Positions 48,001 through 54,000 of a DNA stretch of 64,000 nucleotides are shown piece by piece. Every line of letters starts with the position of its first letter. Positions within the stretch are counted from its first letter, which is position 1. The position numbers are program-made. Source of the DNA: Deferribacterales bacterium (GTDB lineage Bacteria > Chrysiogenota > Deferribacteres > Deferribacterales > Geovibrionaceae); the NCBI GenBank assembly GCA_050253335.1, contig JBFWJG010000003.1, positions 14,143 to 78,142 on the forward strand, read 5' to 3'.

Positions 48001-51000
48001 AGACATGAGCGAAGGCGGGATGCAGGTCATGCATAACGGCAGTCTGAAGCCGGGCGACATGGTTGAGCTCAGGACAAAAAACGCAATAAGCTTCCCCAAA
48101 TGCATGAAGTGCGACAAATACTACAACATGCGCTCGAAAATTGAGCTTATGCCTCTCACCGCCAGAGTAATATGGACCCAAGGAAACAGATGCGGACTTG
48201 AGTATATCAAGCTCTCAAACTTCAACAGAAACGTTATCTCCAGAATAGTCTGGCAGAAGCATATAGAAGAGATTAAAAAGCAGAGTGAGATTAAATAATA
48301 AAAATTGTTACCTGAAAATTTGTACTATCCTATTGACAACCTCCTAGGTATGGAATATGCTAGAGCATAAACTAAATCACCTAGGAGGATGTCAATGAGC
48401 CTTGTAACAAAACAAGCACCGCTTTTTAAAGAAATCTCCGTCGTGGGAAAAGAATTTAAAGACGTAAGCCTCGAAAGCTACAAAGGAAAATGGGTTATTC
48501 TTTTCTTCTATCCCCTCGACTTCACATTTGTTTGCCCCACTGAAATAACAGCTCTTTCAGACGCTACACCCGAGTTTGCAAAAAGAAACGCACAGATAAT
48601 AGGCGTTTCCACTGACAGCAAATTCTCCCACCTTGCATGGATAAACACTCCCCGCTCCGAAGGCGGCCTCGGCGAAATAGCCTACCCCCTTGTTGCGGAT
48701 TTCACTAAAAAAATCTCCGAGGAATACGGCGTGCTTCTCCCCGAAGGAATGGCACTCAGAGCAACTTTCATCATCGACCCTCAGGGCGTTGTTCAGTTTG
48801 AGCTGATCCACGCTTTAGGCATAGGCAGAAATGTTGACGAGGTTCTCAGAAGCCTTGACGCGCTTCAGTTTGTTGCAAAACACGGCGAGGTTTGCCCCGC
48901 AGGCTGGACTCCCGGAAAAGACACGATGATCCCTGACCCTGAAAAGAAAAAGGATTTCTTTAAGAAAAATCCCGCAGGACATCAGTCTTAATAATAAAAA
49001 TCCGCACATCCTGTCGGATTTTTATACACGCTCGCGCCCTGCTTAGCAGGGCTTCGCTACACACGGTGCGCTCCCTTCCATGGGAGCGTTTTCGTTTACA
49101 TCAGTCTTAATAATAAAAATCCGCACATCCTGTCGGATTTTTATACACGCTCGCGCCCTGCAAAGCAGGGCTTCGCTGCACACGGTGCGCTGAATCCCCT
49201 GAATCAAAATAGTGAAATCCCCTATTCTGATAACAAGATTGGGGATTTTTCTGTTTCAGGAAAATATACTCCCGTCATCCTGAGGCTTTGGCCGAAGGAT
49301 CTGAACCCATGGATTTTTTAACGGTATCAGATTCTTCGCTATGCTCAGGATGACATATCCGTGTGCCTTTTGAGAATTTTCGACAATTCTATCCAGCTTC
49401 CTGAAAACAGACTGCAGTTCTCATAAAGAAACTACTGAATCCCCGCGCCCATTGCCTTTGCTCTGCCGAGGCTGTCAGTGTTCTTCACATCACCTTTTTC
49501 GGAAACACCCGCAACAAGAAGCTTTCCCTTGTCTGTCCATCCGCTGTAGGCGGCAAGATGCTCGTATGTTTTCACCATGCCCTCAAAAACAGCTTCCTCC
49601 TCATCCGCTCCGCAGGCGATAAGACAGCACTCCCTGACCCCGAGAGGATGTTCGGTAATGTAGAAAGAGTAGAGCTTATCTATTGCGGCTTTAAGCTGGG
49701 CGGGGAATGAAAAGCAGTATAAAGGAGCGGCAAAAACAAGCACTTCCGCCTTTTCGAGATGCGGTGCGAGCTCATTGAAATCATCATCAAAAACACATGC
49801 CCTGCCCTTTGAGAAACAGGCGTTGCAGGCTCTGCACCCTTTTATATCCTTAAAGGCCGCTTCAAACTTAGTCACTGAATGCCCTGCAGATTCCGCCCCC
49901 TCTATAAAGGCATCCGCCAGAAGATCGCTGTTTCCGCCCTTTCTCGGACTGCCGGTGACAACCAGAATATTTTTCATTTCTACCTCCGTATTTTTCTTTA
50001 TTCTCATCTCTCACACGCAAAATGTAAAGTACGCACTATTTATGCATATACTGCCCTCTGTGATAGTTATACGGAAAATGCAGACTGCGGTTAATTAATC
50101 CGCAGGAAATGCCTTATTTTTAATCAGTCGTTTCAAAATTAATCGATAAATATTCTTAACTGTTCTCATGTAACGAAATTTTCACCCTATTTGATTTACC
50201 GATGAAGGCACGGTTCTTGCTTATCATCATGCAGTTAAATCTGTTCCGAAACGGGGAAAATCAGTATGTCAGTTCAGGATACGGTCACCTATAAGGATGT
50301 TGTCATACCTAAGGAGCTAATCGGGCTCATAGGCTACATGGCAGGGGTTGAGGAATACAGGGAAGAACTGCGCGCCCTCGGCGGTCAGTGGGATCTCTTG
50401 AGCATTCTGGGCAAGATAAGCGGCACAGGCACGGACATGACCGGAACCCGTGAGGGCTTCCGCCAGCTCACCTGCGAACTGCTGAGCCAGCTCGGGCTTG
50501 AGCTTCTGGACAAAACAGTGCGGGAAATAGGCGCAAAGGCGCAGGTGGCTGTGGACATCCTCATAAGAAACCTTTTTGAACGCACGGCGGATATAGGCTT
50601 TCTCGCCACGGACGACGACATCAGAGAATACATACTGAAATCCGAAGAACTGAGAAAACTGACCGCAGGGGAAGAAGAACAGATAAACCGCACAAGAATA
50701 AGAGAAGAAATGACCGCCCGAATTCAGGAGCGGTTCGCGGAATATGTCTCCAAATACTCGGTGTACTTCAACATTGTACTTCTGGATACTGAGGGGAATC
50801 TCGTTGTCCAGCTTGATAAAAGCAATAAGTTAACAAAATCCGCTGATCCGCTGATAAAGGAAGCGCTTACCACAAAGGATGAATTTGTGGAGGTTTTCAG
50901 ATATTCCGATATCCTGCCCGCACATGAGAAATCGCTGATATACGCTTACCGGGTGACAGACGGGGCAAATCTCCGCTATCTGGGCGTTTTATGCCTCTGC

Positions 51001-54000
51001 TTCAAGTTTCAGGACGAAATGGAGAAGATATTCCGCAAGCTGAAAACCGGTGACGAGTGGTCTGTCATATCCATACTGGACAGCGGCGGAAAGGTGATAG
51101 CCAGTTCAGACCCCTATCAGCTTCCAATAGGCGCTTCGGTTGAAATGGTGACGGAAGGCTCCTACGGCATAACCAAATTCGCTGGCAGAAAATATATAGC
51201 CAAAACATGCCCCACAAAGGGGTATCAGGGGTTCTTAGGTCTAGGCTGGCACGGACACGTGATGATGCCCATCGAGCACGCCTTTTCATCCCCGAACGGC
51301 AGACGGGAAAGCATAGACCGCAGAATAATGGAAGCTGTCATGAGCGACCCCCGTCTCTTCTCCGAGGAACTCAGAAGCATCCCCGTTCAGGCGGACAAGA
51401 TTCAGGGCGAGCTTGAGCGAACGGTCTGGAACGGAAATGTAAAGGGGAACGATCCCCGCTCAAAGATCCTTCTCTGGAGCGTCTCGGACGCAGGAGCACG
51501 CACAAAAAGCGTGTTTGAAAAATCCATAGGCAACCTCCACGAAACCGTAGTGGACTCCATTCTGGGCAATGTGTGGTTCTGGGCGGCTCTGGCGGCGGAC
51601 ATAATGGACAGAAACCTTTACGAGCGCGCCAATGACTGCCGATGGTGGGCGCTCACCTCTGCATTCCGCCGCATTCTGGGCGGCTCCGCGTCCCCAAGTC
51701 CGGAGGAGAGGGCAAAGATCTCATCCATACTTTCATATATCAACGGACTTTACACTGTTTACTCAAACCTCTTCGTATATGACGGAACAGGGAAGATAAT
51801 CGCTGTCTCAAATCAGGCGGATGAATACCTCACGGGAACAGTACTCACAAAGGAATGGGCGAGGCAGACCCTTGCGCTGAAAGACAGCCAGAAGTACACA
51901 GTCTCCCCTTTTTCAGTCTCAGAGCTCTATTCAAACAGGCATACCTACATCTACGGAGCGGCGATACTCTCGCCGGAAAACGGCAGAAAGACCGCAGGCG
52001 GGATAGGCATAGTCTTCGACAGCGAGCCTCAGTTCAGGGGAATGCTGAATGATTCCCTGCCGAGGGATGAAAAGGGGCGCATTCCGGAAGGCTGTTTCGG
52101 AGTATTCGCCGACAGGCAGAGGATGGTTATAAGCTCCACAGACCCGGAGCTCAGACCCGGCAGCATAATAAACACGCATAAGGAGCTTTTCAGCCTCCCC
52201 GCCGGCGAGGGAACATCGAAAATTGTCGAGTACAACGGATGCTACTACGCGGTCGGCGCGCACACCTCATCCGGCTACAGGGAGTATAAAACAGAGGACG
52301 GATATGTGAATGACGTTGTCGGCCTCGTTTTCATGCCCCTTGCAAAAATATCCGATTCATCGAACCTAAAACCCCGCAGGAGGGATATGGGCATACATGT
52401 CTCAAACGACAAGACAGGCACGGACTGCCTCGAGGCGGCGACCTTCTTCATCGGGCACAAATGGCTGGGGATAGATGTCAGACATGTTGTGGAGGCTATA
52501 GACCCTGACGGGCTGACCCACGTTCCCGGCAACAGGCGCTTTGTCAAGGGGCGCATAATCTATCATGATGTGCCGCTGCTTGTGGTGGATATCCGTTCGC
52601 TTCTGGAACTGCCTGAAAAAGAGATAGATTCGGAAACCCAGATAATAATCCTCACCACGGGGAAGGACCGCTTCGGCCTTGTGGTTGACGCTCTGGGAGA
52701 GATACCCGAAGTGCCTGACTCAAGGGTTGACAGGAGCGAGCACATTCTCGAAAATTCGAAATATACCGAATGCATAGTTAAGCCTGATCCGAAATCAGGC
52801 AGGAAGGAGATGCTTCTGGTGCTGAAGCCGGACGGCATAATCGCAGCCCTCAGGGATATGCTCTAGCCGCTTTTCTCACTGACGGGGTGCATTCGCGAGG
52901 GGATATAGACAATGAAGTCCGTCCCCTTTCCTTTCACAGAGTTCACCTCTATGCGCCCGTGGTGCTTGTCTATGGCTTCCCGCGCGATGATAAGCCCGAG
53001 CCCCGTACCTTTGTTCTTAGTGGTGAAAAACGGTGTAAACAGTCTTTCCAGAACCTGCTCCTCCATTCCGGGGCCGGAATCGGAGATAACTATGCGCACC
53101 ATGGAGCAGGCCTTATCCATCTCCTTGTCCATGTACTTTATGGTGGGATCGATGGAGATCTCCACCTCAATGTCCCCTTCCGTCTGCGCCTCACAGGCAT
53201 TTTTGAGTATATTTGACAGAGCCATGAACAACTTTTCCCTGTCCGCCCTGATTGTTTTGAGATTGCGCAGAACACGGAAACGAAGCTCAATGCGGGAATA
53301 GACTATCTTTATGCCGTCCCTCAGTTCGTTTATGAAGCTTTCGACATCTATTTCATCAAACTTAACAGTCATTTCACTGAGCATATGTATATTGCCCAGG
53401 ATGGATTTTATCCTGCCGCTCTCCTTCTGGATTATGCCTGCGCATTTTTCCAGATATTCGTTCTTCGCTTTTGCGGCTATGATCTGCGCTGTTCCGTCTA
53501 TGACTGTCAGCGGGTTTTTGATTTCATGCTGAAGGGAGGATATATCCATTATATCCCCTAGGGGCTGGTTAAATTCATCAAGGGCTATAACAAAGAATTC
53601 GCAGTCCTTCCGAGAGGAGATTACCTTTATGCCGTAAGTGCCTCTGGGAGTTTTGAAAACAAGGTTATCCCCGTTTATTTTGCCGAGGAGGAACTCGCCG
53701 AACCTGCGTATGCCGAAGGCGGACATTTCATCCATCAGCAGTTCCGCCTGAAAGTTAGCGGATTTGACCTTGCCGTCCTTTGAGACAGAAAAGAAGGCGA
53801 AAGGAACATCCTCAAACTTTCTTTGAGACATTATCACTCCGTCACATCGTAAGGCTCGAAGCTGAAATCCGTGGCGTAGCTGTCCGTGATTTTATGGGTT
53901 CCGGTATCCACCTTGTAATACATAACATTCTCAGCCGCTGGGAAAACAGCGTACGGAAACTTGTTGAGAGATGCGCTCATATAATCCACCCATGCAGGCA

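What a model noticed while it worked through the whole genome (the two positions that open the first line are those of the whole stretch)
50266..52866. Membrane-free tandem dCache-dCache-CheW protein: a sensor that can dock in chemoreceptor arrays without an MCP
g00250 (866 aa) has two dCache ligand-binding domains and a C-terminal CheW, with no transmembrane segment and no MCP signalling domain. It stands for a large unnamed family of cytoplasmic sensor-scaffold proteins.
Evidence so far: Pfam dCache_1 in two stretches (E 1e-14) and CheW 725-861. Model pLDDT 82.6 with two helix-plus-double-PAS repeats; fold matches are CheW and dCache sensors such as DctB and Tlp3. Highest 19-residue hydropathy 1.35 against 2.4-3.1 for four MCPs; 15 of 120 homologues exceed 1.6, none 1.93. 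4768 homologues at E 1e-50 among 8000 scored; the 120 listed are full length and all carry CheW.
(Added by a program. Inside this text positions count along the whole contig: contig position 14,143 is position 1 of the stretch shown here. "Call 12" and the like, gene names such as g00115 and contig names such as C1 are that model's own, and its searches are not shown. The text may have been shortened before it was handed on; [...] marks where a part breaks off. The agent that wrote the report below was given it as the finding of a first reader that could run no searches.)

Follow-up and report, generated by a model that had tools for sequence, protein, structure and literature searches.

The report
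Soluble chemoreceptor fused to own CheW
This gene encodes a membrane-free protein that appears to be a miniature chemotaxis receptor pair in a single chain, with its own adaptor (CheW) tethered to and predicted to grip one worn-down receptor tip; the family is large, and no description of it turned up in the papers searched.

Summary
In detail: an 866-aa soluble protein with two dCache repeats and a C-terminal CheW. The reading 'no MCP' is true only for Pfam. Each repeat starts with a helical hairpin, and the second is a degenerate MCP signalling tip. The repeats are homologous to ~343-aa soluble mini-receptors (MCP tip, then dCache). CheW-less twin-repeat relatives keep a more MCP-like tip, and their profile finds the TM14 tip fragments 4JPB/3UR1 in the PDB (ranks 2-3, E 0.016). 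The model packs both hairpins into one four-helix bundle. A complex prediction (0.63, best control 0.00) puts hairpin 2 into the receptor groove of the protein's own CheW. All 214 family members with tip Trp388 have a small residue opposite it. Best reading: a single-chain receptor pseudo-dimer with a co-adapted CheW that feeds CheA (79 of 80 carriers encode CheA), often from a sigma-54-type promoter and sometimes near nif genes. Ligand, CheA binding and output are inferred; the CheW lacks the conserved Arg62. The scan noted this family on five other genomes, without the cis-docked tip in the notes shown.

The parts
50206..50220 (+). Sigma-54-type -24/-12 site, 60 nt upstream of the ATG
   Evidence: 10 of 11 consensus positions (consensus recalled); only 6 of 1835 own-genome ORFs have such a site; enriched upstream of homologues
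50266..52866 (+). Gene for the 866-aa twin-repeat receptor-CheW protein (P0121), single copy, not in a che operon
50341..50559 (+). Hairpin 1 (residues 26-98): helical hairpin at the position of an MCP tip, strongly diverged; W42 invariant in CheW forms
   Evidence: DSSP H26-52 and H59-113; same position before the Cache start motif as hairpin 2 and the mini-MCP tip; direct profile match to MCP tips not above shuffles; weak match to hairpin 2 in CheW-less forms (17.2 vs shuffle max 11.9, reversed 14.6)
50560..51285 (+). dCache repeat 1 (residues 99-340)
   Evidence: Pfam dCache_1; 52 bits to the mini-MCP Cache profile; fold matches
51358..51603 (+). Hairpin 2 (residues 365-446): degenerate MCP signalling tip; its N-helix 374-393 (window 51385-51444) is predicted to dock the CheW domain
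   Evidence: in-register alignments; predicted interface; W388 in 214 of 220 CheW forms
51604..52347 (+). dCache repeat 2 (residues 447-694)
   Evidence: 99 bits to the mini-MCP Cache profile; DctB Z 16.9, rmsd 2.7, 226 aligned
52348..52425 (+). Flexible tether (residues 695-720), variable in sequence, constant in length
   Evidence: pLDDT 68-72 around residues 701-720; top-residue conservation 0.18; 20-35 residues in 220 of 220
52426..52851 (+). CheW-like domain (residues 721-862) with remodelled receptor groove (A725, A744) and no Arg62 equivalent
   Evidence: (2qdl Z 17.5, rmsd 2.6, 140 aligned)

Best explanation
A cytoplasmic single-chain chemoreceptor with a built-in adaptor. Shown by computation: the chain is [hairpin-dCache]x2-tether-CheW, and each repeat is homologous to a soluble mini-MCP (MCP tip followed by dCache). 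Predicted: the two hairpins pair into the four-helix bundle that two receptor subunits normally form, and the tethered CheW binds the N-helix of hairpin 2 in cis through its normal receptor groove. Tip Trp388 sits against two alanines where ordinary CheWs have Leu/Ile/Val, so the pair is private. Inferred: a cytoplasmic ligand binding the Cache domains shifts the helices that run directly into the bundle (hairpin 2 follows Cache 1 and leads into Cache 2). That moves the CheW, whose free second subdomain binds CheA-P5 or joins CheA/CheW rings and changes kinase activity. No HAMP domain or methylation region was detected. Sigma-54-type promoters and nif/nitrate/ammonium neighbours suggest a signal tied to nitrogen or oxygen/energy status (weak inference). 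My odds: about 0.85 for the architecture with cis docking, about 0.55 for the whole mechanism including output through CheA.
For: (1) Outside the family, the nearest plasmid matches to repeat 2 are 10 records, 4 annotated as MCP. Of the 7 fetched, 6 read as a soluble MCP tip directly followed by the same Cache, and 1 has a partial tip. That family has 5392 hits at E<=1e-20 of 8000 scored. Its Cache profile scores the two repeats at 52 and 99 bits, and the next of 9629 own-genome ORFs at 17 bits. (2) Hairpin 2 of CheW-less forms aligns in register with MCP tips over 50 columns (19.0 vs shuffle max 16.1 of 25, reversed 14.7) and within a 296-column full-module alignment to mini-MCPs (probability 99.9). 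It is plainly homologous to hairpin 2 of CheW forms (probability 99.2). An unsteered search of their profile against 177,635 PDB sequences ranks the TM14 tip fragments 4JPB and 3UR1 second and third of 9 hits (E 0.016). (3) The model (pTM 0.90) matches single-chain four-helix bundles across residues 25-426 (1yo7 Z 13.4, rmsd 2.6, 115 of 120 aligned), which fits both hairpins forming one bundle. (4) Complex prediction of residues 20-695 with 717-866: score 0.63, best of 3 controls 0.00; the mark was reached by 116 of 157 solved and 2 of 215 mismatched pairs; runs agree in at least 96% of contacts; partner pLDDT at least 79. Contacts 381/384/388/391/392 map to Tsr F373/N376/L380/A383/V384 and contacts 738/741/743/792/810/813 map to E. 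coli CheW I33/V36/E38/V87/V105/V108 (register). PMC13098124 lists those Tsr residues for the CheA-P5 contact, says it largely overlaps the CheW contact, and lists those CheW residues for receptor contact. (5) 214 of 214 forms with W388 have A/S/G/C at 725 and 206 at 744 too; the 2 with L388 have F/I and I/I. The 6 own-genome CheW/CheV domains compared have V/L/I at 725 (5 with a residue aligned, CheV gapped) and I/V at 744. In 79 called metagenome loci, W precedes the tip NG in 48 of 50 CheW forms and in 0 of 27 CheW-less forms; 2 further W cases are cut by contig ends. Groove positions are more conserved than the rest of CheW (0.53 vs 0.34). (6) CheA marker in 79 of 80 carrier genomes. (7) Engineered single-chain Tsr signals, and natural soluble single-chain signalling domains exist (PMC4692393).
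Against: The hairpins of the CheW forms alone do not beat shuffled controls against MCP profiles (15.6 vs 18.1; 9.6 and 11.8; 12.7 vs 13.2), so the homology is transitive and positional. Hairpin 1 has no direct MCP match. The 4JPB/3UR1 hits are above E 0.01, and coiled-coil designs follow at E 0.7-5. Z about 13 for helical bundles can be a common arrangement (note), and I could not inspect the coordinates. The complex joins two parts of one protein folded with one alignment, and MCP-tip/CheW complexes are solved, so the pass may come partly from likeness. The CheA-facing positions are no more conserved than the rest (0.37 vs 0.34), and Arg62 is kept in 32 of 220; PMC3828127 reports Arg62 as needed for chemotaxis in E. 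coli CheW. CheA co-occurrence has a high base rate (8 of 14 control genomes), and 2 of the 79 have only a weak match (G092, G114). No che operon context was seen. No ligand is identified.
Confidence: 0.55

Rival explanations
1. Capping or decoy unit: same fold and cis docking, but the pre-loaded CheW binds CheA-P5 or fills ring positions without coupling. It then dampens or terminates arrays, with the amount made (sigma-54 control) or ligand setting the effect.
For: Arg62 equivalent kept in 32 of 220 and Asn60 equivalent replaced by hydrophobics; tip sequence too degenerate to score as MCP; private Trp/Ala pairing would exclude other receptors.
Against: Both Cache repeats are conserved more strongly than CheW (0.48-0.62 vs 0.36), with many invariant residues at the hairpin-Cache junction, as expected for signal transmission. 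R385 and E743 occur together in 165 of 220 and could replace the lost salt bridge (inference).
Confidence: 0.15
2. One reading: the CheW domain docks on tips of ordinary MCPs in arrays, as CheWS does, either always or after ligand releases it from its own hairpin.
For: Precedent of CheWS and CheW-CZB (PMC10653840); groove residues V36, E38, V105 and V108 equivalents are kept; flexible tether; the genome has about 26 MCP domains.
Against: Groove predicted occupied in cis; small residues at 725 and 744 match Trp, not the Leu of normal tips; tether length held at 20-35 residues. Binding to a canonical tip was not modelled.
Confidence: 0.13
3. The CheW-like domain is a structural cap or binds a non-CheA partner; output goes to nitrogen regulation or c-di-GMP enzymes, not motility.
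For: Orphan gene; nitrogen genes within up to 8 kb in 20 of 80 loci; genes of a mixed kinase/GGDEF/EAL/regulator cluster in 33 of 80 loci; CheA face weakly conserved; CheW-less forms exist.
Against: No neighbour is conserved across the family; nifD is over the cut-off in only 44 of 80 carriers against a CheA marker in 79 of 80; no background was run for signalling-gene neighbours.
Confidence: 0.12
4. The hairpins are generic coiled coils unrelated to MCP tips, and the predicted docking is a modelling artefact.
For: No Pfam MCPsignal hit in the query or among the 25 families shown for 23 CheW-less forms; direct scores within controls.
Against: Shared Cache subfamily and position with true MCP tips; PDB search result; Trp/Ala covariation.
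Confidence: 0.05

Closest known systems
Soluble mini-MCPs with MCPsignal then C-terminal dCache_1 (for example WP_318784668.1, WP_060148510.1)
   Same: Same Cache subfamily with the same start motif, tip hairpin directly before it, no transmembrane segment (highest hydropathy 1.65 in 120).
   Different: One repeat, canonical tip, presumably homodimeric, no CheW. Spacing from tip to Cache motif is 77 residues, against 64 (CheW-less repeat 2) and mostly 64-70 (CheW forms). I found no paper that characterises them.
CheWS of Treponema denticola and CheW-CZB (PMC10653840)
   Same: A sensor domain fused to CheW, reporting an intracellular signal to the chemosensory system.
   Different: CheWS has a CheR-like SAM sensor and sits in CheA/CheW rings of ordinary arrays; here the sensor is twin dCache on a receptor-type bundle and the receptor groove is predicted to be filled in cis.
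MCP tip-CheW-CheA ternary complexes (T. maritima TM14, PDB 3UR1/4JPB; E. coli 6S1K)
   Same: Same helix face and same CheW groove in the predicted interface.
   Different: Covalent fusion, asymmetric degenerate tips, Trp-for-Leu with Ala compensation, no Arg62, very short stalk.
Natural and engineered single-chain receptors (Rhodospirillum centenum soluble forms; Tsr~Tsr; PMC4692393)
   Same: Two signalling hairpins in one chain.
   Different: Those are described as MCP signalling domains; the section read mentions no fused CheW or Cache domains.
CheV and ParP (PMC5706961, search listing only)
   Same: CheW-like domain in a multidomain protein that integrates into arrays (ParP's CheW-like domain is recalled; the listing states only that its C-terminus binds MCPs and CheA).
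   Different: No REC domain here; those proteins bind receptors in trans.

Membership tests
MCP (PF00015) | MCPsignal profile hit above the cut-off | tested here: not met
   No hit to E 10; an own-genome MCP profile gives under 10 bits in all scored family members
MCP (PF00015) | Helical hairpin homologous to the signalling tip | tested here: met
   Hairpin 2, by transitive alignment through CheW-less forms and mini-MCPs; hairpin 1 by position only
MCP (PF00015) | Four-helix bundle of two hairpins | tested here: inconclusive
   Bundle matches span residues 25-426; coordinates not inspected; covariation test uninformative
MCP (PF00015) | Tip N-helix binds the CheW groove | tested here: met
   Prediction only: 0.63 vs control 0.00, with residue compensation
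MCP (PF00015) | Methylation helices with Glu/Gln pairs | tested here: inconclusive
   No pair in residues 59-113 or 397-461 of the query; N-helices and homologues not scanned
MCP (PF00015) | Trimers of dimers and control of CheA | not testable with these tools
   Needs experiment
CheW (PF01584) | Profile hit and two-subdomain fold | tested here: met
   67.2 bits vs 23.5; Z 17.5, rmsd 2.6, 140 aligned to 2qdl
CheW (PF01584) | Arg62-Glu38 pair of E. coli-type CheW (PMC3828127) | tested here: not met
   His in the query; Arg in 32 of 220, Glu38 equivalent in 177 of 220; Arg present in the own-genome CheW/CheV domains compared
CheW (PF01584) | CheA-P5 binding face in subdomain 2 | tested here: inconclusive
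   G57 equivalent in 215 of 220 and hydrophobic V45/I48 equivalents kept; N60 lost; mean conservation 0.37 vs 0.34; binding not modelled
dCache_1 (PF02743) | Profile hit and long helix plus double PAS-like fold | tested here: met
   54.7 bits vs 45; DctB Z 16.9, rmsd 2.7, 226 aligned
dCache_1 (PF02743) | Extracytoplasmic position between transmembrane helices (typical, recalled) | tested here: not met
   Highest hydropathy 1.35; no hydrophobic N-terminus
dCache_1 (PF02743) | Small-molecule binding | not testable with these tools
   Invariant pocket-region residues listed; known amino-acid, amine and purine motifs were not formally compared
CheWS-type sensor-CheW | CheR-like SAM-binding sensor | tested here: not met
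   No such domain
CheWS-type sensor-CheW | CheW domain incorporated into array rings | not testable with these tools
   Needs cryo-ET or localisation
CheV | C-terminal REC domain | tested here: not met

The most novel reading that the evidence does not exclude
A naturally pre-assembled, orthogonal receptor-dimer-plus-CheW signalling unit in one polypeptide. It controls CheA without trimers of dimers, HAMP or methylation, stays insulated from the cell's other receptors by a Trp/Ala lock, and reports an internal nitrogen or nitrogenase-related signal in sigma-54-regulated, often diazotrophic bacteria of several phyla.
Probability: 0.3. Interest if true: 0.88.

Novelty: new variant of a known kind. 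Interest (0 to 1): 0.73.

Why it matters
How receptors control CheA through CheW is still open (PMC13098124, abstract). A stable, soluble, single-chain receptor-CheW unit would be a ready reagent for structures with CheA and would test whether one receptor dimer plus CheW is enough. It also shows a class of chemoreceptors that profile-based censuses miss, because the tip falls below Pfam detection and the proteins are annotated as CheW or hypothetical. The intracellular Cache subfamily shared with thousands of mini-MCPs has no ligand that I could find.

Tried and rejected
Coordinate shift: subtracting 14142 lands on pilus-assembly-type genes; the given coordinates are right. Direct profile match of CheW-form hairpins to MCP tips: within shuffled controls. 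Mutual-information covariation on 220 sequences (effective about 141): dominated by invariant-column artefacts; W388-A725 appeared at z 3.1 among noise, and hairpin pairing was not resolved. Module tree (75 rows, quick method, careful search unfinished): repeat 1, repeat 2 and mini-MCP Caches form three groups (SH-aLRT 96-99), but the order of CheW gain or loss is unresolved. Sigma-28 promoter: 0 of 75 loci at score 10 or more; NifA-type upstream element not enriched, 5 vs 4.0 expected. Sigma-70 and terminator scans near chance. A separate cheW gene beside CheW-less forms: none in 79 called metagenome loci, flanks up to 6 kb and often shorter. Expression: one metatranscriptome with share 0.06; one 232-nt contig lies on the gene, with similar pieces on the opposite-strand neighbours, so it is no evidence. 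No MCP chain was listed among the top structure matches; this absence is uninformative for helical hairpins. Methylobacterium MtpA (PMC10613068, a soluble receptor with only an MCP domain detected) might be a mini-MCP; its sequence was not seen, so this is untested. ESM Atlas found the family and CheW-less or single-repeat clusters but no named function.

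
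Full report
1. Observation. The ORF lies at window 50266-52866 (+) and encodes 866 aa. Pfam gives CheW at 725-861 and dCache_1 in two stretches, with no MCPsignal, HAMP or REC hit up to E 10. The repeats are homologous (23% over 290 columns; profile probability 99.7). Highest 19-residue hydropathy is 1.35; 15 of 120 homologues exceed 1.6 and none exceeds 1.93, against 2.26-3.56 for 23 of 25 own-genome MCP ORFs. The gene is single copy. It lies downstream of a divergent flavodoxin-like gene and overlaps the end of a convergent histidine kinase gene. Named homologues suggest Deferribacterales. The genome has 13 CheW-type and 31 MCP matches.

2. The family. There are 4773 hits at E<=1e-10 among 8000 scored and 378 clusters at 50% identity with E<=1e-30. 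Named genomes span Deferribacterota, Desulfobacterota, Campylobacterota, alpha-, beta- and gammaproteobacteria and Verrucomicrobia (group names read from record titles). Within the own phylum 14 of 68 genomes carry it, 13 of them in the own family counting G000. Of 150 representatives, 114 carry CheW, 24 are complete twin-repeat proteins that stop after Cache 2, and 12 are fragments or broken. So a CheW-less sister form exists.

3. The helical segments are receptor tips. The AF2 model (pLDDT 94.0, pTM 0.90, 130 sequences) shows a helical hairpin before each Cache: 26-52/59-113 and 367-393/397-461. A plasmid search with repeat 2 returned 10 records, 4 annotated as MCP. I fetched 7: six encode a soluble MCP tip directly followed by the same Cache start motif and one has a partial tip. 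This mini-MCP family has 5392 hits at E<=1e-20 of 8000; all 120 listed have the motif and none looks membrane-bound. Its Cache profile scores the query repeats at 52 and 99 bits and the next own-genome ORF at 17. Hairpin 2 of the CheW-less forms aligns in register with MCP tips (19.0 over 50 columns; shuffles max 16.1 of 25; reversed 14.7) and with mini-MCP hairpins (19.7; max 17.5 of 40). The full module aligns over 296 columns including the tip. Hairpin 2 of CheW forms is homologous to it (probability 99.2). A profile of 23 CheW-less proteins searched against all PDB sequences returned 9 hits, with the TM14 tip fragments of the ternary complexes 4JPB and 3UR1 second and third (E 0.016). Against this: the CheW-form hairpins alone do not beat controls, hairpin 1 has no direct MCP match, and Pfam lists no MCPsignal among the 25 families shown for the CheW-less set. 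I therefore call hairpin 2 a degenerate tip with good confidence and hairpin 1 a likely one. The tree separates repeat 1, repeat 2 and mini-MCP Caches but does not order CheW gain or loss (quick tree).

4. Predicted arrangement. Structure search finds CheW (Z 17.5), dCache sensors (DctB Z 16.9) and single-chain four-helix bundles across model residues 25-426 (1yo7 Z 13.4, 115 of 120 aligned). That fits a pseudo-dimer of the two hairpins, although such Z values are common for bundles. Folding residues 20-695 with 717-866 gave 0.63 against 0.00 for the best of 3 controls. The mark was reached by 116 of 157 solved and 2 of 215 mismatched pairs, the runs agree in at least 96% of contacts, and partner pLDDT is at least 79. 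These are two parts of one protein, and like complexes are solved, so the score shows likeness, not binding. The contacts are specific: residues 374-393 against 725, 738, 741, 743-746, 789-792, 810-813. By the register and the residue numbers in PMC13098124, 381/384/388/391/392 equal Tsr 373/376/380/383/384, listed there for CheA-P5 crosslinks on a surface that largely overlaps the CheW surface. By the ungapped alignment, the CheW side equals E. coli L20, I33, V36, E38, I39, V87, V105 and V108, of which six are listed as receptor contacts.

5. Sequence support for cis docking. W388 occurs in 214 of 220 CheW forms. All 214 have a small residue at 725 and 206 also at 744; of the six others, the two with Leu have F/I and I/I. 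Ordinary own-genome CheW/CheV domains have V/L/I and I/V there. In a second set of 80 metagenome loci (79 called), W occurs in 48 of 50 CheW forms and 0 of 27 CheW-less forms; 2 more W cases are cut by contig ends, and one CheW form was mis-read by the pattern and shows Tyr. Kinship inflates these counts, and the two sets may overlap. The tether is 20-35 residues in 220 of 220 and variable in sequence. Groove positions are more conserved (0.53) than the CheA face (0.37) or the rest (0.34).

6. Output. A CheA dimerisation-domain match was found in 79 of 80 carrier genomes (control 8 of 14); two have only weak matches, and the miss is a 2.1-Mb assembly. The CheA face keeps G57 (215 of 220) and hydrophobic positions, but N60 is lost and Arg62 is kept in 32 of 220. 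PMC3828127 reports that R62A keeps binding but impairs chemotaxis. So CheA binding is plausible, coupling is uncertain, and the decoy rival stays open.

7. Context. No neighbour is conserved in 80 GTDB loci; 8 have an MCP gene within up to 8 kb and one has a separate cheW. I annotated 268 of 327 selected neighbour representatives (of 407 neighbours) and saw no cheA, cheB or cheR. Nitrogen genes lie nearby in 20 of 80 loci, 9 of them nif-type, and in 8 of 80 metagenome loci, 5 nif-type (the labels nifQ, the SIR2-like nif neighbour and nasA are mine, from recall or sub-cut-off hits; no background control). nifD passes the cut-off in 44 of 80 carriers, and in 14 of 14 carriers against 12 of 54 non-carriers of the own phylum (not independent). 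A sigma-54-type site lies at 50206-50220. Sites of 9 or more of 11 positions occur upstream in 21 of 75 GTDB loci (0.6 expected, 0 on the opposite strand) and 16 of 80 metagenome loci (0.6 expected, 1 opposite), and in 7 of 11 own-family loci. In the own genome 6 of 1835 ORFs score 10 or more; three look like amtB, nifV and flhG (names recalled from the N-terminal sequence). Sigma-54 serves both nitrogen and flagellar genes (recalled), so this does not fix the signal.

8. Mechanism. Shown: domain order, solubility signal, kinship with mini-MCPs, Trp/Ala pattern, promoter enrichment. Predicted: bundle and cis interface. Inferred: ligand binding, helix shift through the continuous Cache-to-hairpin helices, CheA control, nitrogen or oxygen link.

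9. Literature. Ten full-text searches listed no paper on this family by title or start of abstract; the library lacks most subscription papers. Read: PMC13098124 (abstract, sections 6-8), PMC3828127 (passages), PMC10653840 (abstract, sections 11-12, passages, text search of 2 supplements with no 'Cache'), PMC10613068 (passages), PMC4692393 (abstract, section 26); PMC5706961 listing only. PMC10653840 counts 30 unstudied CheW architectures in Fig. S10, which I could not see and which may include dCache-CheW. The bare architecture may therefore be listed in print. The scan noted the family on five other genomes, a twin-Cache receptor with a degenerate tip, and mini-MCPs; a word search for the tip-plus-CheW reading returned nothing.

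10. Verdict. Real, widespread and uncharacterised in what I could search. It works like a chemoreceptor-CheW complex, but it fails the profile test for MCP and the Arg62 test for canonical CheW. New variant of a known kind; interest 0.73.

Noticed in passing
P0179, P0210, P0243; L114-L124 and others: CheW-less twin-repeat family of about 650-690 aa with a more MCP-like second tip; annotated hypothetical or cache-domain protein. Likely Pfam-invisible soluble receptors. One genome (G070) has both forms.
   Followed up: partly
L016-L022; P0272-P0391: Large family of ~343-aa soluble mini-MCPs, tip first and dCache last.
   Followed up: partly
G000:C14:41915-45553 (L004, L005, L008): Soluble 759-aa ORF with two MCP tips followed by an ORF with three CheW domains cut by the contig end; resembles an F9-type cytoplasmic array locus (label recalled).
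   Followed up: no
window 48-17039: TraH and TraG conjugation genes, a superfamily 1 helicase and an addiction-module antidote gene: probably the edge of an integrated conjugative element.
   Followed up: no
window 17347-27782: TAT-exported molybdopterin oxidoreductase operon with a sigma-54 two-component pair, next to a low-molecular-weight phosphatase, a methyltransferase and an SBF transporter; looks like an arsenic respiration and resistance cluster (Pfam; arsenic reading recalled).
   Followed up: no
window 44067-46019, 47849-48298, 58564-59094, 59096-61846: dCache_3 MCP, PilZ protein, hemerythrin and a Cache-PAS-GGDEF-EAL protein within 9 kb of the gene, none in its operon.
   Followed up: no
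L081 (Helicobacter sp.); G133:C45: Copies of the gene split into two frames near residue 120-150; L069 is split in the CheW part.
   Followed up: no
G001:C6:23783-29661: The one carrier outside the own family has a divergent copy (38% identity) about 2.4 kb from a nifD-like (probably nifE) match.
   Followed up: no
G000:C48:15763-16899, C27:24526-26025, C4:28676-30367, C30:9727-11514, C26:8997-10793, C73:3204-5006: Own-genome MCP ORFs whose tip lies early, leaving long C-terminal extensions of unknown domain.
   Followed up: no
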